A stretch of 64,000 nt of DNA from contig OY740791.1 of NCBI GenBank assembly GCA_963514005.1, forward strand, positions 45,756,001-45,820,000, read 5' to 3'. Positions 1 to 46,423 of the stretch are shown in pieces. Both the position numbers and the translations under genes were made by a program. This DNA is from Raja brachyura (Eukaryota). Every line of letters starts with the position of its first letter. Position 1 is the first letter of the stretch. Below the pieces are notes generated by a model that was not told where the DNA came from, did no database searches, and saw only the letters and a list, made by a program, of their open reading frames with translations.

Positions 1-1113
1 GAGGCATTGTGGACCTAAACCAGTTAAATTCCTATGTTCACTATAGGCATTTTTAAAATGGACACCTTCAAAACTGTGAAACGGCTGTTATCACAAGGCT
101 GTTATATGGCAACTATAGATCTGAAAGATGCATATTATTCAGTGCCAATTCATCATCAGTACCGGTGATGCTTGAAATTTAGTTGGATGGGACAGCTGTG
201 GCAATTTAAAGCATCACCCAATGAATTAAACTTAGTTCCTAGGCTATTCAAGAAATGGTGGAAACCAGTGCTGGCGCTACTTTGGGCCCAGAATCACATG
301 GTAATGGTTTATCTAGATAATATTTAATCATAAGCAACACGCAGCAGACAGCTGAGGAATCGGTTTCAGCAACCAGATACCTGTTTGAAAGGGTAGGGTT
401 CCTTCCAACCAAATCCAAGTTAGAGCCATCCTAAAAAAATGTTCATTTGGGATTTGTCATGATTCAGTTGATATGTAAGTGACTTTGCCTACAGCCAACG
501 CTGTGGAGATCAGAGAGCTCTCTACTAGTCTCGCTGAAAAACAATATCCCTCCATCTGGGAAGTAGCTACTGTTATTGGTAAATTGGTTGCAGCTTTTCA
601 TGCAGTGCAGTTTCGAAGTCTTCAACGAGCTAGAGAACTAGCACTTAAAGAACATGCAGGTCATTTTGATAGACCTGTGCAGTTACCAACCAGAGCCATA
701 GCTCAATTACAAACTACCAAAAACATTTTGGTTCAGCAACCTTCAGTGCTTTTACAGACATATGTGAGTGCTACCGGATGGGGAGCTATGGAATGCGAGT
801 CTAGCTGTGGTGGTAGATGGAGTGTGCAAGAGGATTTGATCCTGCACTGGCATGGTATAAATTACTTAGAATTGCTGGGTGCATTCTATGGAGTAAAAGT
901 TTATTGTTTAACAATGAATTATTGACATGTTCAACTCCAGATTGGTAATACCACGGCTGTGCCATATATCAATCCCATGGCAGTAATAAGGTCTGCATCA
1001 AGTGATAATCTGGATAATCGCATGTGGCACTGGTGTATTTCCAGAAACATCTGGGTTTCAGCTATCTACCTACCAGGTAGACACAATGTGGTGGCAGACA
1101 ACAGGTCACGAAT

Positions 1114-1337
1114 TACACAAAAAGCTGGAGAAACTCAGCGGGTGCAGCAGCATCTAAGGAGTGAAGGAGATAGGCGACGTTTCGGGTCGAGACCCTTCTT
1201 CAGACCTGAGTCTGAAGAAGGGTCTCGACCCGAAACGTCGCCTATCTCCTTCACTCCTTAGATGCTGCTGCACCCGCTGAGTTTCTCCAGCTTTTTGTGT
1301 AACCCTCGATTCTCCAGCATCTGCAGTTCCTTCTTTA
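1114..1337 (+). mobile_element. Penelope-like short insertion with inverted 5' arm (perfect palindrome 1113-1302) inside the DIRS RNase H
   Basis: Arms 1113-1205 and 1210-1302 are exact reverse complements around a CTGA loop. Flanked by the 16-bp direct repeat ACAACAGGTCACGAAT (1098-1113, 1338-1353). Removing the insert restores DIRS ADNRSR-MFNIEWM. Confidence 0.75.
1212..1239 (+). ncRNA. Minimal hammerhead ribozyme-like core (mirror copy on - strand at 1176-1203)
   Basis: CTGAAGA-A-GGGTC-TC-GACCC-GAAA-C-GTC matches CUGANGA / helix II / GAAA / palindromic ACGU / GUC site of the minimal HHRs of Penelope-like elements. Helix I is weak. Confidence 0.55.
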
Positions 1338-2582
1338 ACAACAGGTCACGAATGTTCAACATAGAATGGATGAATAAATCCTGAAGTTTAAAAATGATTG
1401 TCTGCCGCTATGGGTTGCCAGATATTGATCTATTGCATCCAGGCTAAATCACCAATTGCCTAAATATGTTTCATGAGAACCTGGTCCAGGAGCAGTAGCG
1501 GTGGATGCATTCTCGCTACATTGGGGATGTACTTATTTTATGCTTTCCCCATTCTGCCTGATTAGGCAGTGTCTCACCAGAATAGAGCAGGACTCCGCCT
1601 CGGGCGTTTTGGTGGTTCCGGACTGGACTACAGAGCCATGGTTCCCATTGGTATTCAGAATAATGACTCAGCCATTCATGGCTGTCCTCAACTGCAGTAA
1701 TTTGTTGGTCCATCCAGTAACAGAAGAAAGTCATCCGTTACATGATCATATTAATTTGTTGATCTGCAGGTTCTGACCAGACCGTTCCAAGGCTTTGGAC
1801 TGTCGAATAGGACCATGGATGTCATAACTGCAGCTTGGAGAGATAGCACTATATGTGTCTCATATTAAGAAATGGGAGATGTTTTGTTTACAGTCAATTA
1901 TATTTGATCATACTGCAAGCATACCGGATGTATTGGAGTTCCTTGCTATGTTGCTATGAAGTTATAGTGCCATTAATAGTACTCGGAGTGTTTTGTCCTC
2001 CTATTTAGGGCAGTTTCAGAAAAACAACCTATTGGGTCTCATCCATTAGTGTCTCGATTCATGAGAGGAATTTTGTAACACAAATCCTCTTGAACGTAGT
2101 GTCCCAGAGGCTCAGTCACAAAAAATCCTATAAGAGGTGTCAGTATAAACTATTCCAAGATGGTAAAGCATGTTTTGGATTCCGCTGGAGTAGACACTCA
2201 TGTGTTTAAATCTCACTCCACCAGGGCGGCATCAACATCCGCAGCAAGGCCGCATGATGGTCTAAGGAATCAACTTTTCTAAAATTATGACAAACCTGTC
2301 CTGACAGTGCCAGGGTTTGGGCATGTGTTTTGGGTTCCGTTTGATTTGATTTGCTTTGTCTTCATAAATTTCATTTGTAATTTCCGCTGGGATAGAGGGG
2401 TTATTACTGTATTGTTATTTACATTTTTTTAATTGATTATTGGATAATTCGAAGCAATGTTCAATATATTACTTATTCACTACTGTGTCAAATGAAGCAG
2501 TGTGTCGTATGGAGTGCATCTACGGCATGAAATCACAGAGCTTTGAAATCTTCACGTAGTCACTCACGTGACTCCGAAGTAA

Positions 2583-2885: not shown

Positions 2886-4215
2886 AAAGGCTCTGATGCT
2901 ACCTAGACAGATGTCAGTGATGAAGTGTAGGGCACACACAAAAGGACAGACCCCGACAGACATAGATAATCGTCGTGCAGACCAGGCAGCAAAGGAAGTA
3001 TCCCGGGAACGCAAGGTGGTGGTGCCAAAAATGATGACGCAGACTAAAAGTTTAGGAAACAAGTTTCCCTCGGAAAAGCCAATGCCAACCATCCAGGAAA
3101 TTGTTCAGTTCCAGGAGGAATCTTCTGAAGGGGATGTAAAATTGTGGAAACAGCCTGGATATACAATAAATTGCATGATGGGGTAGTGGACTACACCGGC
3201 AGGGAAGATTTGTATGCCAGGTCCTCTTGCAGTTTGGGTTGTGGAGTGTATGCATTTTGCAACTCACTGCAGTACAAAAGCAATTGGAAATGCTCTATTA
3301 GCTACTTGGTGGCATCCAACAATACAAACTGTGACCCAAACAGTGAGTAGCTGCTGAATTATTTGTCAGAAGTACAATCCTGGAAAAGGAGTAGGGTGTG
3401 GAGTTGGGAAGTCACCTTTGCCCATGCGTCCTTTTGAAACTCTACAGATGGATCATATTGAGCTAGAGAAATGCCAGGGATACAGATATGTACTCGTAAT
3501 TGTCAATGTATTCAGCAGATGGATTGATGCCTATCCAACGCTTGATAACAAAGCGGATATTGTTGTCATGGTGCTAATGAGAGAAATTATCCCTAGATTC
3601 GGTATCCCAATTCCGTATCCCAGTTCTGACAATAGTCCTCATTTTATTGGGCAAATTAATAAAGAATTCTGCGAGCAGCTGGGCATCCAACAACAATTAC
3701 ACTGTGCTTATTGACCACAGGCTGCTGGACTTGTAGAAAGCCCAAATCAGACCATTACAACTAATATAGCTAAATTGAAGGCAGAGACAGGAATTGGGTG
3801 GATCAAATTACTCCCCATAGCTTTATTTCAGATGCGTGTCACGCATGCAGGGAAATGTAGCCTGAGCCCAGGTGAAATTATTTATGGTAGACCTTTGAAA
3901 GCCCCTTGGAACACCAAAATGCAATGAAAGATAAGTTTCCATCATATGGCCACGGAGATGACCGATTACATTCTGACCTTGACTCGGGCACTAAGAGATT
4001 TGCATTCTTGGGTGCGAGCAGCAAATGGTGAATTGCTTCTGTTGGTCTCTTCTATCAAGGTGAAGTCTGGTGACTATGTACTAGTGAAGAATTGGGTAAG
4101 GAAAAGGTTGGAGGTTCGTTGGGAAGGACCTTAACAGGTTCTCCTAACAACTCCAACAACAGTTAAGGTAGGAGAAACGAATGGGTACATCTTCATCACT
4201 GCAAGAGTATTAGTG
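2886..4215 (+). mobile_element. Endogenous retrovirus pol remnant (RNase H end + integrase), class I (gamma/epsilon)-like
   Basis: KALMLPRQMSVMKCRAH...NRRADQAAK (RNase H), RPFETLQMDHI, SDNSPHF, HCAY*PQAAGLVE (integrase core), WEGP (GPY/F-like). Disrupted by stops and frameshifts. Confidence 0.8.
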
Positions 4216-4493
4216 GGACAATAGACTGCTAACTTGTTTTATCAATAAATCACTTAGGTAACATCATACCCATCGAGGGTCAAGAACATTTTCAACCAAC
4301 AGTATGGACGAAGAGGATTCATGCCCATGCAAACTCAGGAGATGAAGACTCATCGGTCAGAAGTCATGGATCTATGCCCATGCAAACTTCGGGAAGTTGC
4401 TTAGAGTTCTGACAGCTTACATCGTCATCATGTTAGGTTATAGAACAGGAACCGTTGAATCTCTTTTTGTATTATTGGTTATCATAATATGAT

Positions 4494-5038
4494 AAAAGAG
4501 GGGAATGATAATATTGGGCATTTAAAGTGCCTGACAAAATGGAGGATTTCACCTTTTGCAAAACCTGCTTGGCATCTTTTTTGAAAAGGCTGCAAACACC
4601 ATGAGGATCATGGCTCCAGAATGTCAGTGGCCTGGGAGGAAGTTGAGTACAGTATGATGTCCAGAGAGCTGGGTCCTGCTGCAAATGCATGAGCAGGATT
4701 GGTTGGGAAATGATGGGTTATAAAACTATTGTTAACTATGTTGTATGGTCTTTGCACTGCTATTTGTGTTTGATGAAGGAGAGGGGCCTTGCCCAAATTG
4801 TTTACATTACCTGGTAAAATATTTCTTTACTTAAGGTAGCAGTTTTCCATTAAGAGCATTCTGGAGAAACAATGATATGGGATATTCTGTGATTGGGTTA
4901 GGTAACTCTCAATTAATGTACTGTATGATCTTTATCTATGATTGGCTTGAAGGGGTTGACTCGAAGCTCTATCGTCTCTATCGAAGCTTATACGTGACTC
5001 GAAGCTCTATCGTCTGGGAAGTATATTTCATATTTACA
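4494..5038 (+). mobile_element. Polypurine tract and probable 3' LTR of the ERV
   Basis: AAAAGAGGGGAA (4494-4505) is immediately followed by TG at 4506. Candidate CA ends at 5030 or 5038; right end uncertain. Confidence 0.5.
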
Positions 5039-5970
5039 AATGTCAAAGGTACATCCAAAGACTAAAGAAACCATACAAAAGGAGACGCAATAGATTGCAG
5101 GTGGTGGAAACTTGATTAAAAATTGATGGGGGAATTTAGTCGGCTGAGCAGCATTTATGACGTGGGAGGAATTATTGACTTTTTTAACTGATGCACGGAC
5201 CCCACGAGACAATTTCTCCGTCCACAGATGTTATTGGACTCGCCGATTTCCTCCAGATATTTACGCTTTGCTGTACAACCGCATTACTGATATGGGGCAA
5301 TGTAATTGTTAGACAATGATTCATCACATGTTTCAGTGAACATAGTAAACCATGCTTAAATATTACCTTAGCCGGATTATGGTCACTATTATGCAATCAA
5401 CCAGTTACAGGAACCAGTCTTCATTTCCCCGTCACTTCTTGATATCAGCTCTGTAGTTCTCTATGAAGCGAATATCTTATATGTCTGATAGTAATCAGCA
5501 GGCAACGGTGCAGAGACTATAATGCAGCTGCTCGTTACCCGGTCTGGTTCACAACCTGGAGCGTAGACCACCGTAGCCTATCGCCAGTATATATTTTACA
5601 TAATTTCACGATTATTCGTGGGGAATTTAATTGCGTTGTAAGTAGCACATCGTGTATTAAGTGCATTAACACAAGGTGATATCCAATATCTAGATGTTTC
5701 AGTTTTGATTATTTATGAAAGATAGATAACCGTTCTAATAGGTTAGAAAACATATCTGCTTCAATTGAAGTTAAATCTCTTTACATTTCAGCACAACGCA
5801 GGTTTACAACTTGTGCATAACATGGTCCGTTGCTACATGCTACATTATAAAAGTGGGAGTTTATATTCGTAGAAGAATGTAACCCACAAAATAGTCAAAG
5901 CACCGTTTGTATTTTTCATTGAACAACCAATAATGTGAAATGTGATGTGACGATTACACAAGACAGCACC

Positions 5971-6090
5971 GCTTTAAGAAATACGTATATGCCGGAAAGA
6001 TTGAATATTATTACTTGGCATCGGCCTATCAGAGGCTGGATTGTGACTGGTGATCCGGCCCGCCCGCTTTCCTCCCCATACACCATTGCG
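5971..6090 (+). promoter_or_regulatory. cPcdh promoter module 1
   Basis: GCTTTAAGAAA (5971), degenerate CCAAT (CCTATCAG), GGTGATCCGGCCCGCCCGCTT (6049-6069); homologous to the other seven promoters. Confidence 0.7.
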
Positions 6091-6336
6091 TAGGTTTTGC
6101 CACAGTCGAATGCTGCATCTCGAGCCGTGCAGCACTGAAGTCCATTTGGCAGTCGGAAATCTGGACAATGTTGCAAAAATGTTGAGAAAAACCGATAAGG
6201 AATCCTCAGATTTCTAAACGATAGTTAGTTTGATCTGTTCTCACACATTGTCGAGGGAAACAAATGTAAGTGACTACAATCGTAAGTAACAAAGGAAACC
6301 GTCACGCCGAGACAACTGGGATGTGTTGTGCTGGAA

Positions 6337-8769
6337 ATGAAACGTTATAGACACCACTGGCTGTTAACATGGATATTACTGTGTTGGGTGTTCTCTTTCT
6401 GGGATCTAATTTCTGGACAGATTCGTTACTTAATTCCAGAAGAGCTGCAGGTGGGTGCCTTTGTTGGAAATATCGCGGTTGATTTGGGTTTAGACGTGAA
6501 AGAGCTCAAGATTCGCAGTTTCCGTATTGTGCCTGGTCCGACGAGACAATTTTTCGACGTAAATGAGGACAATGGCAATCTATTTGTGAAGGAAAGGATA
6601 GACAGGGAACAGATCTGTGGACCGAGCGCAGTCTGTATCTTGTCCTTAGAAACAATGATCGAAAACCCTTTCAGTCTGCACGAAGCTGAAGTGGAAATTC
6701 TGGATATAAATGACAATGAACCGACCTTTTCCGAAAGCTCGATGCGCCTTGACATCTCAGAAATGGCCGCACCAGGAACAAGTAATCCGCTTGAGTGCGC
6801 TCATGACCCAGACGTAGGAAGTAACTCGGTGCAATCATATCAGTTAGTTGAGAATGATTACTTCTCATTGGACGTTGAGACTCGAAATGGAAATGAAGTC
6901 ATGCCCGTGTTAGTTTTAAAAAGAGCACTGGATAGAGAAACAATATCCAGACACATGCTACTGCTGATTGCTCAGGACAGCGGAGTCCCCGCGCGTTCAG
7001 GAACAGCGGAAATATTAATAATTGTGAAAGATGTAAATGATAACTCTCCCCAGTTCTCCCAGTCCGTTTATAGGGTTAACGTGATGGAAAATATGCCCAG
7101 AGGATCACTGGTTATCAAATTAAATGCCACTGATTTAGATGATGGATCAAATGGAGAGATTATTTACTCTTTCGCTCGCCAAACCTCAGATAGATTACGT
7201 GAGCTTTTTAACGTAGATTACAAAACAGGTGAAATAACGATTAGTGGAAATTTGGACCATGAAGAAAGCGGTTTGTTTGAATTAAATATTCAGGCTGATG
7301 ACTCCGGTCCCGCCGCAATTTCATCTTTTTGTCATGTGCTCGTTCACATTATCGATATGAATGATAATGCGCCAGAGATCACTATATCTACACTGTTTTC
7401 CCCCGTTCCCGAAGATTCGGAGCCAGGCACGGTTGTGGCTTTAATCGGTGCCACAGATAAAGATTCTGGAGACAATGGAAAGTTGAATTGTCAAGTCGCA
7501 AATGACGTTCCTTTCCATCTGGATGCATCTTCTAAAAAATATTTAACACTGCACACGCAACACTATCTTGATCGTGAAAATATTTCGAGGTATGAAATCA
7601 CAATCGTCTGCGGTGATTCGGGGTCACCTGGGCTCACCTCGAAGAAAAGTATTGTGGTGGAAGTTTCTGATATAAATGATAATTCGCCGTACTTTTCTCA
7701 GCCTTTATATACAGCACAAGTGATGGAGAACAATGTTATCGGGGCATCCATCTTTTCGGTAACAGCTTTTGATCCAGATTTAGATCAGAACTCTGAATTA
7801 AACTACTCCATCGTACCGAGCCAGGTTCAGACCGAGTCAGTGTTCAATTATGTGCATATCCAATCAAAAAAAGGAATTATAATTTCGCAAAGATCTTTCG
7901 ACTACGAGAGTCTCAAACAAATTCAGATATGGGTTGTGGTGACGGATTCGGGACAGCCGCCATTATCCAGCAACGTTACTGTGGAATTTATTATCCTTGA
8001 TCAGAATGACAACGCTCCGGTAATTGTACACCCATTACCCCATTACGGATCGATAGTAACAGAGACAATGTCTCGTTCGGCCGAACCAGGCTATCTGGTT
8101 GCCAAGGTGTCGGCGAAGGATGCGGACTATGGCCAGAATGCCCGGCTTTCCTATCAACTTATCCAGGCCACTAATCGTGGACTTTTTACCATTTCACCAG
8201 ATACTGGCGAGATATGGACAATCCGTGGTATAATGCGCAAAGACAGCACAAGAGAAAGGTTGGTCGTCGGTGTAAAAGATCACGGTTCACCGCCACTTTC
8301 CGCTTCATTGACTATTATCTTAACATTGGCAGACAATGATATGGAAAAACTTACTGACGCGAACGGTTCGGCTCAAGAACTCACAACGTTTGCGGATCTC
8401 AGCATTTACTTAGTCATATGCTTAGGGGTTACCTCGTCTACATTTCTCGTCATTGTGATTTTGCTCGCCGTTAAGGTTTATAAAGGGAGGAGTCGATTTG
8501 AGTCCCACGATTGTTATCTGGGCACTTGCCATTGCTTTGAAACACGCAGTTCTTTGAATGGAATACAAAAAGCCAGCAGAAATCTTGAAATTGTTCCAAA
8601 TTACGTGGAAGTGTTTGGGGGTGATCCGCTTTCTCAAAGTTTCCGATATGACACGTGTTCGAGTTCCGGCACTGGGAAGAGACAAGCCATGTTTCCCAAA
8701 ATAGACAACGCATCTGGACGCAAGGTTAGTATCACTCGCGAGATCAAAACAAAAATGCGAATAATTTAA
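6337..8769 (+). CDS. Clustered protocadherin variable exon 1 (gamma-C/nu-like); stop 8767-8769 precedes an out-of-frame donor at 8786/8787
   Basis: Signal peptide, QIRYLIPEE, six cadherin repeats (DINDNEP, LDRE, DQNDNAP), TM, SLNGIQKASR...PNYVEVFGGDPLSQSFRY. ATG 6337 aligns with paralog starts. Confidence 0.93.
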   Translation: MKRYRHHWLLTWILLCWVFSFWDLISGQIRYLIPEELQVGAFVGNIAVDLGLDVKELKIRSFRIVPGPTRQFFDVNEDNGNLFVKERIDREQICGPSAVCILSLETMIENPFSLHEAEVEILDINDNEPTFSESSMRLDISEMAAPGTSNPLECAHDPDVGSNSVQSYQLVENDYFSLDVETRNGNEVMPVLVLKRALDRETISRHMLLLIAQDSGVPARSGTAEILIIVKDVNDNSPQFSQSVYRVNVMENMPRGSLVIKLNATDLDDGSNGEIIYSFARQTSDRLRELFNVDYKTGEITISGNLDHEESGLFELNIQADDSGPAAISSFCHVLVHIIDMNDNAPEITISTLFSPVPEDSEPGTVVALIGATDKDSGDNGKLNCQVANDVPFHLDASSKKYLTLHTQHYLDRENISRYEITIVCGDSGSPGLTSKKSIVVEVSDINDNSPYFSQPLYTAQVMENNVIGASIFSVTAFDPDLDQNSELNYSIVPSQVQTESVFNYVHIQSKKGIIISQRSFDYESLKQIQIWVVVTDSGQPPLSSNVTVEFIILDQNDNAPVIVHPLPHYGSIVTETMSRSAEPGYLVAKVSAKDADYGQNARLSYQLIQATNRGLFTISPDTGEIWTIRGIMRKDSTRERLVVGVKDHGSPPLSASLTIILTLADNDMEKLTDANGSAQELTTFADLSIYLVICLGVTSSTFLVIVILLAVKVYKGRSRFESHDCYLGTCHCFETRSSLNGIQKASRNLEIVPNYVEVFGGDPLSQSFRYDTCSSSGTGKRQAMFPKIDNASGRKVSITREIKTKMRII

Positions 8770-10306
8770 TCTGCCAGCACAATGAGGTAAGTAGCTCTGA
8801 ACAAAACACTTCAACTTTAATTCAGAGTCGCAGACAGCTCCTTAAGTTTGCAGTAGATATTGCATGCTAATCTATTTAAGGACTAGCATGAGTGAATATT
8901 GAACACCTGAACTTTTTAACTCCATACTCTTTGGTCCTGATTTTATCATTTTTTTCGAGATAGTATTCGAAAAGGTGCAGTCCCAGGACTTGTAAGAAAA
9001 CCTTGGTGAGAGGATTGAATCAGTCAAATAACCAGTAATGACGCTAAAGTAAAGTTGAACAGACTGCATTCCTCTTTGAACTATTTTTCCCTCTTGAAAG
9101 GTAGGACATGCTTAGCCTGGGTTGCCGAGCATGCTTCCCTGCTCTGCATTCCTGAACTACTTCAATCTCTTTTCTATAATATTTTGGCTATGTTCTCAGC
9201 CTGTAAATGGTCATACTCCCTCATAGATCATTTAGTCTTGTTTACAACTTACCCCCGTGGTCATTCGTTTTTACCCTATCAGATATATCCCTCCTACACC
9301 TCATGCTTCTCTCCCATCTTTTCCAGTTCTGACAAGGGATCTTCGACCAGAAACTTTCGCTCTGTGTTATTCTCACACAGACGGCCTCACCTAATGGGTG
9401 CATCAAGCATTTTGTGTTATCATTTTATCTTCCAGTGTCTATGAGGTTTTTCATGTGTATTAGAAAGGGCTGATAAGACATGTTATTCTGAGGGGAATGT
9501 CCAATGTGAACACATTTAATGAGGTGAATTTGGCGGAATAAAAGTAGTATCAACGATGAACTGAGTGGGGAAAACGGATCAATGTAGTGAAGTGAACAGA
9601 CTTCCACGACAAAGGTTGTTGGTAGGTTATAATGATAAAACAAACCAGAAAGTCTTAAGATCAGTATTGAGAGAAGGAGCACCAGTCAAATAATTGGAGT
9701 AGGGGGACAAATATAATGGTAACTATGAGAATTCAATACATATACTTAAATTGAGTGTCATATCTGCACAAATCAATGCGATCTCATACGTTGACCATCA
9801 TTACGCTGCATTACTCTAATTAAAATATGTTGACATTTTAGGAGACATATGCGTAAAAGTACACTGCCAATTAATTTCGCAACATTGAAGAGCATTGATT
9901 AATAACAGATACTTCAACCCACCTCGTCTGCGCCGACCATGAAGCCAGTCCAAAATAATGCCATCTGCCTGCACACGATGTGCTTCCCTCTATATTCTAC
10001 CCGATTCAGTATTTCCCCAAATTCCTCTTAAAAGGTGCTATCCTATTTGCGTCCACCACCTACCATTCTTTGTACCAGAAATCAGCCTCACAAATCTCCT
10101 CCAAACTTTCTTTACTCACCTAAAACGTATGGCACCTGGTATTGGGCATTTTCTCCCAGGAATGAAATAATTTGAATATCAACACTGTCTGCCGCTCATC
10201 ATCGTAAAATAATATCATTTCATCCTTTGTCTCCCCCCATCCTTATCGGGAAAACAATTCAAGCAGGCTCAACATTTCTTTATTTCAAACACATTGCTAT
10301 CCAAAG

Positions 10307-19262: not shown

Positions 19263-19325
19263 AAGACCAAAGCGGGCCAGACTGATATATGTGGAAAAGA
19301 ACTGCAATTACTGGTTTAAATGGAA

Positions 19326-19450
19326 GGTAGACACAAAATGCTGGAATAAATCACCCTACAGGAAGGGTCTCGACCTGAAACGTCACCAGCTGGCTTCTCT
19401 CCAGAGTTGTTGCCTGTCCCGCTGGGTTACTCCAGCATTTTGTGTCTACC
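19326..19450 (+). mobile_element. Penelope-like/HHR repeat with short inverted 5' arm
   Basis: 20-bp inverted termini GGTAGACACAAAATGCTGGA / TCCAGCATTTTGTGTCTACC; internal GAAGGGTCTCGACCTGAAACGTC (core lacks CTGA). Confidence 0.65.
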
Positions 19451-24868: not shown

Positions 24869-25714
24869 GTGAGGGTTTTCTAAACAAAGGGTGGACTCTA
24901 AAACTATGTGTTCCTTTGGGATTAACGTAAAAAGCAATACCACATCCCATTCATCGACCCGAACCTTTTAGTTTCTCTTCCCATAGATGTTGCTAACCTG
25001 ACGAGTATTCCTAGCATTGCCTGTTTCTATTTAAAATTTGATGCATCTGCAGTTGCATTTTTTTCTTCCAAAACGGAAACTCTTATTGTTGTCGAGTGAG
25101 CGGCGCCTTAACATATATATCGTGGAAATACCGAGTTTCAGTTCCCTGGAAGTTTCTGTTTGTTACCGCTGTGCATGCGTAATGTTTTATACTAATCTCT
25201 GGGGGAGCATGTTACTTCTTCTGTACACATTAACAAGTGGTCGCGTGACATCAACGGAATGTTGATAGTGGCAGCTGAAGCTGTTGCCTGATGCAGACCC
25301 GTCACCCTCCCCCCGTGTGACTTGATAGAGACGATTCTCGTCTCCAAATCACTTTGTTTAACTTCAAGTGTCGCTATTTGTAAAATTGCGAGCTACATGT
25401 GCTTTAGTACTGAGAATATTTAGCTCTGTAATTTGTAAATGTATAGGATAGATTTCTCCCGTGTCAAGCATAATATTTTGTCCCCCTTTCTGCAAACAAT
25501 TTCCACAAACAGATCTCTTGTGTCATTATAGCGCGGTTCTTTGCAGAGTCTGAGAGTTTTTCTCACCAAACATCAAGAAGTAATTTATTGGTTGCCGTAT
25601 GTGTCCGCAAATGGTCCAGGATTATTTAATGGTCTTAGAATAGCCCAAGTTGTAAAATGGTCGCCAATCTTTACGCATTATTTTGTTTGGCTTCCTGATG
25701 ATCCAAGGGCAAGG

Positions 25715-28959: not shown

Positions 28960-29140
28960 AGCAAAACGCAAAGAGCTGGAGGAGGTCAGGTAGCATCAGT
29001 TGAATTAATGTTCCATCCCGACACTTCTTCAGACTGAACAAGAGTCGCTAATCGAAATGTTTTCTGCCCATTCCCTCCACAGGTGTTGTCTAGCCCTTTG
29101 GATACCTCCAACACTTTGTTTTTATTTTAAGATCCCAGTA
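28960..29140. repeat. Old degenerate palindromic copy of the Penelope-like/HHR repeat
   Basis: CAAAGAGCTGGAGG...CTTCTTCAGACTGAACAAGAGTC...GAAATGT...CTCCAACACTTTG; same tail-to-tail layout as 1113-1302. Confidence 0.4.
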
Positions 29141-30764
29141 TCGGCTCCATTTCACTGCCCTCACTGTCATATAGAGAAAATGGTTGCCTCCAAACAGAGT
29201 TTGAAAGTTATGGTAAAAGATAACAGATTCCCTTTCCTTCCTTCCATTATCATGTATTATCTGTGACGGGGATGAATGTAAAATATACTCCAATGGTACT
29301 AGTTTTCTTCTCTGATTGTCCTGTTTTCACTCCTGAGTTAACCTCTTCCGTCGTGGACTTGGAGACCACATCTATAAAATGTATTTTAATTTTAATTTCC
29401 TCAGTGTTACGATTCAGAAAAATAGGAAAATTAGGAGAAGATAGCAGTGTTCCCGTGGTTCTCCGCTGTTGGTTTGATAGCTGGCATTTGTTCAGATGAA
29501 TTCGAAATGCCAGCGGACGCTTTTAGGTAACTGGAAACTACGATCAGGTATTGGGAGTTGCACCCCTTTCTCAGAGTTTTCGCTGTGAGTTATGTTCAAC
29601 GCTGCAGTCGACGAGTTTGCAGATACTCCACAGGCATGAATATAGTCTCCAACGAGCGTATCCGAAAGGTAAACAACTGACATGATGAATTCTATGACAT
29701 GCCGTTCCGAACTGAGCAGTGAAGAGAAGCTATCGTAAGGAAGGAGGAAAATCGTATTGGGCTTGAAATCAGATCGAACTGTTTTAGGGAATCGAAAATG
29801 GCTTGGTATAGAATTGGGACCTTTCTGCACAAGTGTCATTTTCCTACGTTTGTTTTTGAATTCTCGTTTATGTGCTATTAAATCTCCTGCAACTAGTTTT
29901 ATTGATGATTATAGTTTAAAACGGTTTAAACAGGGATCAACCAATGCTTTTGGATTACACTATAATATTTTAGCTATTTCTGAACATGCCCTATAATCTG
30001 GCCATTCAATTTGTAGTGGTCTGGTATATGAACCAGGGCAGATTTCAACCACCTCTCTTTATGAAGAGTGCGCAAAAAAATATCTACCATGGCACATTGG
30101 AGAAACCTATTGTTCAAACGGCTGTACTCCTTCAGGCCGCGTGGGTGGACGGAGAAAGCGGAAGTTATTATTAGTTTGCAGAGAGCAATGGTCTCAAGTT
30201 TATTATCCACGAGAGCGAAGTGGGTGGCACGGTGGCGCAACGGTAGTGTTCAGTAACATTACGGTTGTTTGCAGAAGCTGTTTTTGAACCTGTGCGGTAC
30301 AGTTTTCAGATTGCTATAACTTCTTTCCGTTGGCAGGAGTGAAATGAAAGTTGAGCGGGTCCTTTATGATGCTGGCTACTTTTCTGAGGCAGTGCCTCCT
30401 ATAGATCTCTTAAATTAAAAATAAATCTACCGTCAGATCATGATTGCACTGCTGGTAGCATTTCCATAATTTGCAACACAATGATATTCCCGAAGTATTT
30501 TCTCTTCTGAAAATGCTTCGGGTACTCCCGATACTGACGCGAAGCGCGCCACGAAATACAATCTATAATTTGTTTGATGCCTGTGATAGGTTAACTATGA
30601 TTGATCTCCATGGTTTCACCCTTTTATATTTTGGGAAGAGCTTTGTGCGCACACCTAACCACCAAATAAAAGCGACCAGCAGAAATTAATTCTCGTTTAT
30701 TTGGTTATCTTCTGGATGTTCATTTATCACTTTTATTCACTGTTGAGTTGTTTCAATACTGTTC

Positions 30765-31726: not shown

Positions 31727-31823
31727 AGTCTGAAGAAGGGTCTCGACCCGAAACGTCACCCATTCCTTCGCTCCATAGATGCTGCCTCACCCGCTGAGTT
31801 TCTCCTGCTTTTTGCCTACCTTC
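31727..31823 (+). mobile_element. Penelope-like short repeat with intact minimal HHR core (31730-31757)
   Basis: CTGAAGAAGGGTCTCGACCCGAAACGTC followed by the same ~65-nt downstream segment as in 1240-1302. Confidence 0.7.
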
Positions 31824-31850: not shown

Positions 31851-32140
31851 GTTTAGTTTAATTTAGAGATACAGCGCGGAAACAGGCCCTTTCGGGCCAC
31901 CGGGTCCGCGCCGACCTGCGATCCCCGAACATTAACACTATCCTCTACCCACTAGGGCCAACTTTACATTTACCAAGCCACTTAGAAGGAAACCGAAGAT
32001 CTCGGAGAAAACCCTCGCAGGTCACGGGGAGAACGTACTAACTCCGTACAGATGGCACCCGTAGTCGGGATCGAACCCGGGTGTCCGGCGCCGTATTCGC
32101 TGTAAGGTAGCAACTCTACCGCTGCGACACCGTGCCGCCC
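31851..32140 (-). mobile_element. tRNA-derived SINE (HE1-like)
   Basis: Reverse strand reads GGCGGCACGGTGTCGCAGCGGTAGAG (A box), GGGTTCGATCC (B box) and a (TAAAC)n tail. Confidence 0.8.
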
Positions 32141-33159
32141 CAAAGTTCTTGATCAAAAAATGAATGCGATTCCAGTCACGTGGGATGATTAAAAGCAAGC
32201 GTAGAATGGATAGCATGACATTGTTGGTGATGGTGAATACCCAATTGCTTCAATCCTTGATGGGCGTTTCTCACTGCATACTTGAAAGCAATGCGGGCCA
32301 GGGGTGCTCCATGTGATAATTATTGGCGCAGTGGGATGTTATGTTGTTGGTGGGCAAATATCCACATTTATATCCTTATGATAAAGCTTTGATGTGATAT
32401 CTGAATAGGAGTTGCCATGGCTGGCATGGGATCTGAGAACTCAATAATTTTGAAAGGAATAGCGGTTGGGCACAGAATCAAAACTAATGGGTTAATGTTA
32501 GTTCTTCGATATTAGTTTTTATGGCTGTCCCGGCTGTTTGCAGACAGTTTCTCACTCTTTGAAGATTTAATTTGAAACCATACATCTTCGCAGTTGCTTT
32601 TCATGCTGCCCGGTGCCAAGGGCATTTAAAAGATTAAAACGATTCTTGCAACATTGAGACCTGAGAAAGGTGGGAGTAAGGCGTTTGACATCCTTCAAAG
32701 GTTTCAGTTGGGCTTCTTGACGGGCAGCGTCGGAAAACTATTAATAAAACCTGTTGGTATCTGGACCTACAAAATACAGGCATGGAGACCACTACTGGCA
32801 TATTCGAATATCGGGCTTGACCAACCTTGTTTGAATAATTTCACGATGTACTCGACAATTATTCCTCCTCAAAATAGTTCAGATTGCACTTGCCTTCCTT
32901 TCCCAACGCACTTGTGTGGCTGATGGGATCCTAAATATAAAATGATACATGTTCTCAATACCCCTCCATGTAACCTTCAGTTCTGTGTTTCAGTAAGTAA
33001 ACCATTAAAGATGATTTCAACGTGAGAACACACTCACTTGATTTCAACGCATGCCAATGATATCTGCGGCAAACATTGCAGCGTGGACAGCGAAGATATG
33101 ACCGTAAATTAACAGAAACAAGCAACTAAGCACCTTTTTGTGCGATCTCGTCCACGAAA

Positions 33160-33478
33160 CGGCGCAGTGGCGCAGCGGTAGAGTTTCTGCCTAATAGCGC
33201 CAGAGTTCGATCTGTGCTGTCTGTACGAAGTGTGTACATTCTCCCTGTAACCGCGTGGGTTTGTACATTCTCCCTGTAACCGTTCCGGATTCCCCCCATA
33301 TTCCAAAGACGCACAGGTTTCTAGGTTAATTGGCTCTTTTGAAACTGACTTTTAAAATTGTAAAAACAAATCCCCAGTGTTCAGGATAATGCTACCGTGT
33401 AGGGTGATCGCTGCTCGGCGCGGACTAGATGGACCGAAGGACCTGTATACGCTGAATCACTAAAATCGAAAGTCTAAA
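33160..33478 (+). mobile_element. tRNA-derived SINE (HE1-like)
   Basis: GTGGCGCAGCGGTAGAG A box, GTTCGATC B box, 21-bp internal duplication (33233/33262), conserved 3' half. Confidence 0.75.
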
Positions 33479-34001: not shown

Positions 34002-34778
34002 ATATAGACACAAAATGCTGGAGTAACTCAGCGGGTCAATAGACAATAGACAATAGGTGCAGGAGTAGGCCAAACGGCCCTTCGAGAAAGCACCGCCATT
34101 CAATGTGATCATGGCTGACCATTCCCAATCAGCACCCCGTTCCTACCTTCTCCCCATATCCCCTGACTCTGCTATTTTTAAGAGCCCTATCTAGCTCTCT
34201 CTTGAAAGCATCCAGAGAACCTGCCTCCGCCGTCCTCTGAGGCAGAGAATTCCACAGACTCACCACTCTCTGTGAGAAAAAGTGTTTCCTCGTCTCCGTT
34301 CTAAATGGCTTACTCCTTATTCTTAAAATGTGGCCCCTGGTTCTGGTCTCCTCCAACATCGGGAACATGTTTCCTGCCTCTAGCAGGAAGCCCTTAACAA
34401 TCTTATATGTTTCAATGAGATTCCCTCTCATCCTTCTAAACTCCAGAGTGTACAAGCCCATGCTCCATTCTCTCAGCATGTGACAGTCCCGTTATCCCGG
34501 GAATTAATCGTGTAAACCTACGCTGCACTCCCTCAATAGCAAGAATGTCCTTCCTCAAACTGCACGCAATACTCCAGGTGTGGTCTCACTAGGGCTCTGT
34601 TCAACTGCAGAAGGACCTCTTTGCTCCTATATTCGATTCCTCTTGTTATAAAGGCCAACATGCCATTCGCTTTCTTCACTGCCTGCTGTACCTGCATGCA
34701 GCATCGTGCATGCAGGGTCAGGCAGCATCTCTGAAGAAAAGGAATAGGTGACGTTTCAGGTCGAGACCCTTCATCAGA
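34002..34778 (-). mobile_element. Penelope-like/HHR repeat (core 34750-34777, CUGAUGA) split by a CR1 insertion
   Basis: Halves 34002-34038 and 34715-34778 rejoin into the repeat consensus; GGGTCA is duplicated at 34033-34038 and 34715-34720. Confidence 0.7.
34039..34714 (-). mobile_element. Young 5'-truncated CR1 LINE with (CAATAGA)n tail
   Basis: GLYTLEFRRMRGNLIETYKI...TRGH...FFSQRVVSLWNSLP is the CR1 ORF2 C-terminus. Confidence 0.85.
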
Positions 34779-40290: not shown

Positions 40291-42166
40291 TCATGGCCAA
40301 AGTATTCATGTAGATGCGTCTATGGTTTCAGAGATATGGTGACACCCAGGCGATTAGTGTATGGGACGTACTCGTGCCTATGATTCCATGTTGACCCTGG
40401 TCGGAATGATTTTGCAGTTGTGCTTAAAGAAGCATTCTGTGCCGAGTTCAATGAACGTTTAATATACAATCTGCAGAGTTAGTGGATCTCAAACCTGGTA
40501 CTGAATATGGATGTACATTCTGAGTGTACAATCGCAGGCAAAATGCGAATATTCTGAATAATACTGATTTTTTACATACTATCAGCATAAACCCTGCAAG
40601 AAATGTTAAAGGCAAGTGTCTCCTTTCATGTTATAATCATAGTTTTTATGAACTTGTTCACATATCTGACAAATGTTGAAATCCATGTAATAAAACGTAA
40701 TAATGATGACGGTAATATAATATATATTGAGGAGAATTGGTTCTTCTTGTTGCTGGAGATGTCCAATGTCCAACATCTGTGTCATTTCATCCATTATTCA
40801 ATACTCCAAACCCCAATTTCGGCCAAGACTGGAAACGGCTTCAGCCATAATATCGTACAGGTCGTTCGTGAATTCACTTTGATGTATGGGTCCAGGTAAT
40901 TCATTCAGAAATTACTTCAGTGATGCCTCTGTTTGGGAATTGTTGTTCTGCAACCATCAATATTCCCTTTATTTGTATTAATTTTCTGTGCTAAGCCACA
41001 GGAAAGCCCAACAATTGATTCGTCTTCGTGTACCCTTGCTGACGAGACAGCTTTTGAACCATCGCTTCTAGTGATGATTCTTCTGAAATGATGTTGCCAG
41101 GACGTTCCATTACTTAGATTCAGTAGCAGTGTGGAATGGTGATAGATTTATGTCAGACTCTTAGGCGACATGGAAGGCAGTGTGAATCCCAAAGATCTAA
41201 CCCTTTTAAATTAAACGTTTTGCGCGCTGCGTCTCCTGCTAGTGAAGCTTTCCACTGTGATATTTGATGCCGTGCAATATAAAAAAGGTGATATTGTATT
41301 ATTTTTGGATAAGCACTTTTTCCAGGTTTGGAAACAAATCGCTGCAGTTTCATTTGGTCATGTAATCCAATTGCATGTATGCGAGCAAATATGTTTGTCG
41401 CTTGATAGCATTGCTTACAATAGCTCCCATCGCTTTCTGAATGATTAAGGGAAGACTGAATTGATAGTAGATGGCTAGTTCCGAATTACTCGATTTTTAT
41501 TTACGTTATATATTGGTCAGTATTACATAATGTCGGATACAACTCAGAGCTTCATCTCGATTGGCGCCTCTTGCGTAGAAACGCCTAATCATGTGTCAAC
41601 CAAAGACTCTATGGCCCATCGTCATCCTTAGTCTAGAGTGCGATGGAGCACAATGTGTTTGGCATACAGATTACGTCGCTAATGACTGCAGAGGTACAAC
41701 ATTCCCCAAGAAAAGGTTTAGAATTGATGGGAAGCACCTTGTGAGTACAATAGCCTGGATCATGCTAATAAAGGCTAAAAGATCAGAACAGAGTAGTGGG
41801 TTTTAAATGGAAGACCGTGCTGGATCGCTTTGCGCATGATCTGCGCACAGCAAAGTTGAAATTCACCGACCTAGTCAGAACATTGTTAATTTCCTAGTCA
41901 TTGGCCTCATGGAGACCAGCCCCATCGAGTGGATCTTGCTGAATTGCACAGCATTTCCTCGACTCTATCGTCAGTAGTATATTGCCTTTTGCGAAATATA
42001 GCACGACATCTGAGTTACCATTATATTTTCTTATAATGGTGAACCTGCTGATAAAGTGCAAGGGGAAAGATAAGGATTGTCTTCTTTAAATATTTTTCAT
42101 TGCGGTCTAATTATTTCAGCGTTTGTGCATCCTTACCCTACATTTTAAAAAAAACTTTAAATATTA

Positions 42167-42457
42167 GGGGCGTCTCGGTGGCGCAGCGGTAGATTAGCTG
42201 CCTTACAGCACCAGAGACCCGGGTTCCATCTAGGCTACGGGTGCTGTCTGTATGGCGTTTGTGGCCGCGTGGGTTTTCTCCGGGTGCTCCGGTTTACTCC
42301 CACACTGCAAAGACGTACAGGTTTGCAGGTTCAATGGCTTTTATAAATTGTCCCTAGTGTGTAGGATAGAACTAGCGTACGGGGAGATCCGTGACTAGGT
42401 GGTCCGGACGGCCTGGTTCCGCGCTGCATCTCTAAACTAAACGAAACTAAACTAAAC
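42167..42457 (+). mobile_element. tRNA-derived SINE (HE1-like)
   Basis: GGTGGCGCAGCGGTAGA A box, GGGTTCCATC B box, (CTAAA)n tail. Confidence 0.8.
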
Positions 42458-46324: not shown

Positions 46325-46423
46325 GGTATACAAAAGGCTGGAGAAACTCAGCGGGTGCAGCAGCATTTAAGGAGCGAAGGAGATAGGCGACGTTTCGGGT
46401 CGAGACCCTTCTTCCACCGGATC
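46325..46423 (-). mobile_element. Penelope-like/HHR short insertion with 13-bp TSD
   Basis: Nearly identical to the left arm at 1113-1201; AAATATTTGTGAT is duplicated at 46312-46324 and 46424-46436. Confidence 0.8.

What the first reader, a model, noticed from the sequence alone, without database searches (positions are those of the whole stretch)
1176..1337. Dispersed ~100-130-nt repeat family carrying a minimal hammerhead ribozyme core
Seen: the core CTGA(A/T)GA-A-GGGTC-TC-GACC(C/T)-GAAA-C-GTC is intact at 1212-1239 (+), 1176-1203 (-), 31730-31757 (+) and 34750-34777 (-). Partial or decayed copies lie near 9329, 19362, 24955, 29030, 46389 and 58765, all followed by the same downstream segment. 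Established: CUGANGA/GAAA/NUH is the hammerhead core, and Penelope-like elements (PLEs) carry minimal HHRs whose helix III is reduced to a palindromic tetranucleotide and are proposed to cleave as dimers. Inference: these are PLE pseudo-LTR-derived or retrozyme-like units. The sense copy at 31730 lies in the intron of Pcdh pre-mRNAs from exons 1-3 and could cleave them. Caveat: helix I pairing is poor in these copies.
Basis: partly seen in the sequence, partly recalled or inferred. Interest (0 to 1): 0.7.

Follow-up and report, generated by a model that had tools for sequence, protein, structure and literature searches.

The report
Penelope retrotransposon stubs with minimal hammerhead
These repeats are short end-pieces of a very abundant Penelope-type jumping gene, each carrying an already described stripped-down RNA motif that is predicted to cut itself only weakly; half of the sampled copies stop at one sharp point just before the motif, likely the start of the element's RNA, and a role in cutting the neighbouring protocadherin transcripts is unlikely.

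Summary
The repeat is the pseudo-LTR tip of a young Neptune-type Penelope-like element. The core 28-mer has 50,608 exact genomic copies. Longer copies run into an RT + GIY-YIG frame (1,204 codons, intact in two loci), and a 3,965-bp tandem array exists. The motif matches the published minimal hammerhead, but native helix I is only 2 bp and decayed copies show no helix II covariation. The named locus is one 240-bp insertion (1113-1339, 16-bp target duplication) whose 93-bp perfect hairpin would prevent hammerhead folding. Of 99 copies anchored at the 3' end, 50 stop 0-8 nt before the core, about 40 times the per-base rate on either side. This likely records reverse transcription starting inside the RNA and running off its 5' end. 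Starts at the predicted cut site are rare but 2-5 times above the adjacent positions, which hints at occasional cleavage. Cleavage of Pcdh pre-mRNA is unsupported: there is no dimer partner and no strand bias. This scan has already noted the same family and reading many times, in this genome and in others. New member of a known kind.

The parts
1098..1113 (+). left target-site duplication (16 bp, shares 1-3 nt with the element ends)
   Evidence: identical to 1338-1353
1113..1205 (-). inverted pLTR stub without tail; starts 2 nt before the core; hammerhead core at 1176-1203
   Evidence: 99% identical to the pLTR of L028
1209..1339 (+). direct pLTR stub with tail; starts 3 nt before the core
1212..1239 (+). 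minimal hammerhead core: CUGANGA, extra A, 4-bp helix II, GAAA, palindromic helix III tetranucleotide, GUC; predicted cut after 1239
   Evidence: compared with the consensus in PMC4209133 supplement
1303..1339 (+). optional ~36-nt PLE tail, between the two 3'-end classes
   Evidence: 3' ends of 80 subfamily-A copies: 52 at 62-68 nt and 22 at 99-104 nt after the core
1338..1353 (+). right target-site duplication
31727..31814 (+). older solo pLTR stub, intact core at 31730-31757, 2-bp helix I, sense to the Pcdh exons
34715..34778 (-). older stub; core 34750-34777 with a G-U pair closing helix II and a 1-bp helix I
46325..46414 (-). young-subfamily stub truncated 2 nt inside the core
19287..19448 (.). 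older inverted pair of stubs truncated inside the core
9329..9439 (+). decayed stub, core broken
24954..25058 (+). decayed stub, core missing
29028..29144 (+). decayed stub, core broken
58690..58792 (-). decayed stub with a deletion in the core
59531..59652 (.). decayed inverted pair of stubs

Best explanation
The repeat is the hammerhead-bearing pseudo-LTR tip of a young, very abundant Penelope-like retrotransposon of likely Neptune type, and most short copies are likely run-off products: the element's RT-endonuclease would nick genomic DNA, start reverse transcription inside its RNA 90-130 nt downstream of the core, and fall off at a fixed RNA 5' end 0-4 nt before the core. Shown: the element's structure, the two 3'-end classes, the sharp 5' boundary, target duplications and inverted pairs. 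Inferred: that the boundary is the transcription start, and that long copies come from read-through RNA of tandem arrays. The hammerhead is predicted to be a weak, dimer- or protein-assisted ribozyme that is usually copied uncut. The window copies are inert relics with no likely role in Pcdh expression.
For: Element. 50,608 exact cores. 7 of the first 30 loci share >=580 nt of upstream sequence that encodes RT and GIY-YIG motifs. L058 is pLTR - 1,204-codon frame - pLTR with an inverted truncated copy in front. C18 holds a 3,965-bp tandem array. Pfam RVT_1 (E 2e-4) and C-terminal GIY-YIG (E 2e-3), both below curated cut-offs. CxxxxCxxC linker, DKG, YIDD. Ends. 50 of 99 copies anchored at the 3' end stop at 0 to -8: 9.4% per base against 0.26% and 0.21% on either side. 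Genome-wide, 5,802 copies start at -2, against 40-581 at five positions from +27 to +34. Logan contigs of four runs have their commonest upstream loose ends at -4 to -2. The boundary reads YCAGT, initiator-like, with a weak TATA-like word 29 nt upstream in the young subfamily (consensus recalled). Precedents: internal RT starts that define the tail, and uncut RNA as main substrate, in PAc (PMC11167929); pLTR promoters in Penelope and Chlamys-3 (PMC2377424, PMC8557442).
Against: No RNA end was observed: only contigs were available and their RNA status is a guess. The extra G before copies that start at -2 (69 of the first 100) is not clean evidence of a cap; about 11 of 21 such cases in 30 loci can come from the element's own GGGTC by microhomology. 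The TATA-like word is absent from the one older-subfamily copy I looked at. The boundary also reads as a 3' splice site (pyrimidine tract, no AG from -116 to -4, CAG|T). The 99 copies come from 4 Mb of one contig and count inverted pairs twice. The Neptune assignment rests on motifs, not a tree.
Confidence: 0.75

Rival explanations
1. The 5' boundary is a 3' splice site, so short copies come from spliced RNA, and splicing could supply a better helix I, as proposed for D. virilis Penelope.
For: Long pyrimidine tract, no AG between -116 and -4, CAG|T at -1. In D. virilis the intron end maps to the 5' end of helix I (PMC4209133).
Against: Short copies share no upstream exon sequence. 7 of 14 and 6 of 13 copies with a defined target duplication have at most 4 and 2 nt, respectively, between the duplication and the core or the copy start. 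No GT..AG joint ending at the site is among the 15 best-supported of 115 joints shown for four contig sets.
Confidence: 0.12
2. There is no fixed RNA end: the RT stalls or switches template at the 5' edge of the core because of RNA structure or bound protein, and the stubs are ordinary 5' truncations.
For: Many junctions carry microhomology with the element's own sequence and fold-back inversions; 5' truncation is general in PLEs (PMC8557442).
Against: A structural stop is expected at the 3' edge of a fold, not after the enzyme has passed it. The rate falls about 45-fold just upstream of -8.
Confidence: 0.1
3. The sense copy at 31730 is an active ribozyme that cleaves Pcdh pre-mRNA and affects isoform output.
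For: The core is intact, all 26 tblastn hits to a Pcdh first domain in 504 kb are on the + strand, and exons 2-4 end in a GAG|GTGAG donor, so the copy is intronic and sense.
Against: Helix I is 2 bp and helix II pairing probability is at most 0.02 in context. There is no nearby same-strand partner. Single minimal hammerheads did not cleave in vitro (PMC4209133), and PAc's needed its protein (PMC11167929). No strand bias: 23 vs 31 for all copies, 3 vs 5 for intact ones. Hammerhead cleavage in an intron left splicing efficient (as cited in PMC2995048).
Confidence: 0.03

Closest known systems
Minimal hammerheads (min-HHR) of metazoan PLE pseudo-LTRs (Cervera and De la Pena 2014, PMC4209133; read parts 1-2 of 4 of the text and part 2 of 3 of supplement file 2)
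   Same: CUGANGA + extra nucleotide, G10.1-C11.1 pair, GAAA, palindromic helix III, NUH; U-rich upstream flank; position in both pLTRs; mostly single dispersed copies and close opposite-strand pairs.
   Different: Helix II is 4 bp and native helix I 2 bp with a wobble, at the short end of the published range (2 bp in D. virilis and Culex). Copy number is far above the 4,000-9,000 reported for coelacanth and Xenopus. Searches for shark, skate, Callorhinchus and Leucoraja found nothing in the two supplement files held; file 1 could not be searched.
PAc, Poseidon element of Anolis carolinensis (Frangieh et al. 2024, PMC11167929; read parts 1-2 of 4)
   Same: Hammerhead at the pLTR-ORF junction; two 3'-end classes 36 nt apart forming the tail; copies keep the uncut core.
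   Different: This element has the zinc-finger linker that Poseidon lacks. Its long frame begins about 130 nt after the core rather than inside it. The parts I read do not describe a fixed 5' boundary of short copies.
Neptune-clade EN+ PLEs (Craig et al. 2021, PMC8557442, passages; Arkhipova et al. 2013, PMC3846280, passages)
   Same: Single RT + C-terminal GIY-YIG frame, CX2-5CxxC linker, partial tandems, inverted 5'-truncated copy, 30-40-nt tail, target duplications.
   Different: Half of the sampled copies are 95-135-nt stubs with a sharp 5' end; no tree was built here.
Animal non-LTR retrozymes (Li, Clavereau and Pollet 2026, 10.64898/2026.07.22.740005; read part 1 of 5 and passages)
   Same: Type I hammerhead in a non-coding unit related to a PLE pLTR.
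   Different: Defined as tandem arrays with a hammerhead in each unit; the window copies are solo or inverted stubs identical to the autonomous element.

Membership tests
PLE minimal hammerhead | Core CUGANGA, extra nucleotide, GAAA, NUH | tested here: met
   consensus
PLE minimal hammerhead | Helix II with G10.1-C11.1 | tested here: met
   4 bp in sequence; not favoured by ViennaRNA in context
PLE minimal hammerhead | Palindromic helix III positions for dimer folding | tested here: met
   self-complementary tetranucleotide in all four intact window cores
PLE minimal hammerhead | Helix I of about 2-5 bp | tested here: inconclusive
   2 bp native and at 1212 and 31730, 4 bp at 1203 by junction sequence, 1 bp at 34777
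PLE minimal hammerhead | Covariation in helix II | tested here: inconclusive
   Among the first 100 of 5,373 copies changed at 10.2, 12 changed the partner, 4 of them compensatory (counted by eye). One sister subfamily of 5,585 exact copies keeps the stem by a one-sided U-A to U-G change with a UUCG loop.
PLE minimal hammerhead | Located in the pLTRs of an RT-EN frame | tested here: met
PLE minimal hammerhead | Self-cleavage as dimer or with protein | not testable with these tools
   indirect only: local excess of copy starts at the cut site
EN+ PLE, Neptune clade | Single frame with RT and C-terminal GIY-YIG | tested here: met
   1,204-codon frames in L057 and L058; weak Pfam hits below cut-off
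EN+ PLE, Neptune clade | CX2-5CxxC linker and CCHH motif | tested here: met
   linker at residue 1071; CxxC at 1111 with two later histidines, read by eye
EN+ PLE, Neptune clade | Partial tandems, inverted truncated copy, 30-40-nt tail, target duplication | tested here: met
EN+ PLE, Neptune clade | RT phylogeny within Neptune rather than Nematis | not tested
   no reference sequences on hand; no PDB match
Non-LTR retrozyme | Tandem non-coding monomers, each with a hammerhead | tested here: not met
   window copies are solo or inverted; the tandem units found are the 3,965-bp coding element or lack the core
Rfam hammerhead families | Match to a curated covariance model | tested here: not met
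   0 hammerhead among 4 matches at E<=5

The most novel reading that the evidence does not exclude
The genome holds a fossil record of both fates of the element's RNA. About half of the young copies are run-off cDNAs of an uncut transcript that begins at the hammerhead. A rare class, roughly 1% of copies, begins exactly at the predicted cut site, including a five-unit head-to-tail insertion in which every unit starts there; this class would record in vivo self-cleavage of a minimal PLE hammerhead with a 2-bp helix I, which the papers read here could not show.
Probability: 0.35. Interest if true: 0.65.

Novelty: new member of a known kind. Interest (0 to 1): 0.36.

Why it matters
The motif and its host element are of a described kind, so the finding as written is ordinary. 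Its value lies in the copy ends. The role of PLE hammerheads is still open: the 2014 paper has no in vivo evidence, and the 2024 paper found the ribozyme dispensable in vitro and saw no RNA-seq ends at the cut site. Tens of thousands of young copies with precise ends give exact predictions: an RNA start 0-4 nt before the core, RT starts about 92 and 130 nt after C3, and a minor end at +28. One 5'-end sequencing experiment could test all of them. The Pcdh-regulation idea should be dropped unless new data appear.

Tried and rejected
Rfam scan: no hammerhead family. Folding: no window monomer folds better than shuffles (z -0.8 to +1.2) or adopts the hammerhead; helix II probability is at most 0.02 in five contexts. 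This neither supports nor excludes a dimer- or protein-assisted fold. PDB sequence search of the ORF: 0 hits at E<=1. tblastn found no PLE coding sequence in the window or 40 kb of flank. Cap evidence from an extra G: rejected as ambiguous. A first reading of 'no excess at the cut site' rested on 0 of 99 sampled copies and one control at +34 (581, probably inflated by internal variants). It was revised after three adjacent controls. Sequencing runs: all 24 were contigs, so RNA ends, strand and expression could not be read; no empty-site joint was among the 15 of 730 joints shown for the named locus. Pcdh constant exons were not found in 230 kb downstream with short recalled motifs; this is no evidence of absence. 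Paper searches listed no paper describing this family or the sharp 5' boundary; subscription journals, Repbase and Dfam were not searched. The bioRxiv supplements and file 1 of PMC4209133 were not seen and may list it.

Full report
1. Observation. The four intact cores are at the stated coordinates, and a fifth with 2 mismatches is at 46389-46416; none occurs in 100 shuffles. Rfam gave no hammerhead hit. A descriptor written from the published consensus found 18 motifs in 504 kb around the window against 0-1 in 20 shuffles. The window is an array of eight protocadherin variable exons on the + strand. The genome looks like that of a cartilaginous fish; this is recalled from the repeat content and also stated in earlier notes, and I did not establish it.

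2. The named locus is one insertion. Positions 1113-1205 and 1210-1302 are a 93-nt perfect inverted repeat. The right arm continues with a tail to 1339, and a 16-bp duplication flanks the whole. The flanks translate to two halves of a decayed frame resembling a DIRS-type RNase H (family name recalled). If transcribed, the locus folds into a -202 kcal/mol hairpin, which would exclude the hammerhead fold in either arm.

3. The parent element. The 28-nt core has 50,608 exact copies in G000 and 0 for the reversed control. In 7 of the first 30 loci a shared upstream sequence of at least 580 nt encodes the end of an RT and a GIY-YIG domain. A protein search scored 150 of 33,591 candidates, nearly all 97-99% identical. 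L057 and L058 carry 1,204-codon frames. L058 has the core in repeats on both sides, 3,971 bp apart, with an inverted truncated copy in front; contig C18 has a 3,965-bp tandem array. Pfam hits are weak: RVT_1 E 2e-4, GIY-YIG E 2e-3. DKG, YIDD, a CxxxxCxxC linker and CxxC before the GIY-YIG motif are present. By the passages seen in PMC8557442 this is a C-terminal EN+ PLE with the linker of Neptune or Nematis. The 2026 preprint found only Neptune and Poseidon in vertebrates, hence likely Neptune.

4. The ribozyme motif. It matches the min-HHR consensus of PMC4209133: extra nucleotide after A9, G10.1-C11.1, palindromic helix III, U-rich flank. Native helix I is only 2 bp. Among the first 100 of 5,373 copies mutated at position 10.2, the partner changed in 12, compensatorily in 4 (counted by eye); this is neutral decay. 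A sister subfamily of 5,585 exact copies keeps helix II through a one-sided change and has a UUCG loop, weak evidence of constraint on master copies. ViennaRNA does not favour the hammerhead fold. Published behaviour: single min-HHRs did not cleave and dimers cleaved poorly; the PAc hammerhead needed its protein and was not required for insertion in vitro.

5. The 3' ends. Of 90 core-anchored loci, 80 belong to the young subfamily. Their 3' ends fall at 62-68 nt (52) or 99-104 nt (22) after the core; 6 fall elsewhere, mostly through small indels. This is the PLE tail, which in PAc corresponds to two internal RT starts. 17 of 51 short copies had an adjacent inverted partner against 0 of 29 long ones. 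Target duplications of 8-17 bp were found in 14 of 34 non-inverted short copies. Two of the 51 'short' copies (L190, L218) are in fact 18-36 nt longer.

6. The 5' ends. To avoid selecting for the core I anchored on the 3' end (42,751 copies) and measured 99 distinct copies from C1:0.17-3.97 Mb. These are most of the first 100 listed (one not fetched, identical duplicates collapsed) plus three from core-anchored loci beyond that range; inverted pairs count twice. Fifty end at 0 to -8 relative to C3, 9 inside the core, 6 downstream of it, 6 at -9 to -100, and 28 further up. Per-base rates are 0.26%, 9.4% and 0.21%. Genome-wide, 5,802 copies break at -2. Contigs from four other runs show the same boundary. 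A real RNA 5' end explains this best, because the enzyme has already passed the core when it stops. The site reads YCAGT with a weak TATA-like word 29 nt upstream, and pLTR promoters are known. A cap is not shown: G precedes 69 of the first 100 copies starting at -2, but about 11 of 21 such cases examined can be templated by the element's own GGGTC. The splice-site rival is weakened by the lack of a shared upstream exon.

7. The cut site. None of the 99 sampled copies began at +28. After earlier notes suggested a rare class, I counted genome-wide: +27, 40; +28, 204; +29, 60; +30, 116; +34, 581. Correcting for the share of flanks each pattern accepts (my estimate from base composition) gives about 110, 570, 240, 300 and 1,140. 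The cut site is thus 2-5 times above its neighbours but below +34, and about 18 times below -2. Of 15 loci at +28, 2 are internal deletions or multiple changes, 3 are solo copies with a target duplication, 5 are inverted junctions, 4 are units of tandem arrays and 1 is unclear. L281 holds five head-to-tail 63-nt units plus an inverted one inside one target duplication, each unit starting at +28 or +29. This fits a cleaved template. It also fits an RT stall at the base of the competing hairpin seen, or fold-back at a short palindrome. It is a hint, not proof.

8. Pcdh. Exons 2-4 end in a donor consensus, so 31730 is intronic and sense, also for the exons upstream of the window. But it has a 2-bp helix I and no nearby same-strand partner, and family copies in the cluster show no strand bias (23 + and 31 -, p=0.34; intact 3 and 5, p=0.73). 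The sample is small, so mild selection is not excluded. PMC2995048 cites work in which hammerhead cleavage in an intron left splicing efficient (passages).

9. Verdict. A new member of a known kind: min-HHR-bearing pLTR stubs of a likely Neptune PLE. I reached the run-off reading before consulting earlier notes. The notes show that the scan has recorded the same family and reading repeatedly: 170 notes fit 'hammerhead Penelope' in this genome and 2,576 hold my search words overall. These are not independent evidence. Interest 0.36.

Noticed in passing
L281:1430-1870 (G000:C1:74.835 Mb); similar spacing at C1:117.724 Mb and C2:55.272 Mb: Insertion of five head-to-tail 63-nt units plus an inverted unit inside one target duplication; every unit starts at or one base after the predicted cut site and lacks the hammerhead core.
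   Followed up: partly
window 800-1700: Decayed frame resembling a DIRS-type RNase H region (name recalled), interrupted by the PLE insertion; itself a repeat in other runs.
   Followed up: partly
window 6286-63998; G000:C11:45.64-45.89 Mb: Cluster of about 25 protocadherin variable exons, all on the + strand; constant exons not located in 160 kb beyond the last exon with short recalled motifs.
   Followed up: partly
window 32098-32144, 33160-33199, 42164-42209: Copies of a tRNA-like SINE head in both orientations (identity recalled, not tested).
   Followed up: no
L058:6560-6550 (- strand): A 5' splice-donor-like AAG|GTATGC overlaps the first in-frame ATG of the long PLE frame, and an upstream ATG in another frame lies inside the stub; the element may splice its leader.
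   Followed up: no
L008 / L007 (G000:C1:660.0-660.3 kb): A copy whose 3' end runs 202 nt past the core into the ORF start and is followed by a second stub, i.e. a third, more distal RT start or a template jump.
   Followed up: no
window 47926-49029: Long G/A-rich low-complexity tract between Pcdh exons.
   Followed up: no
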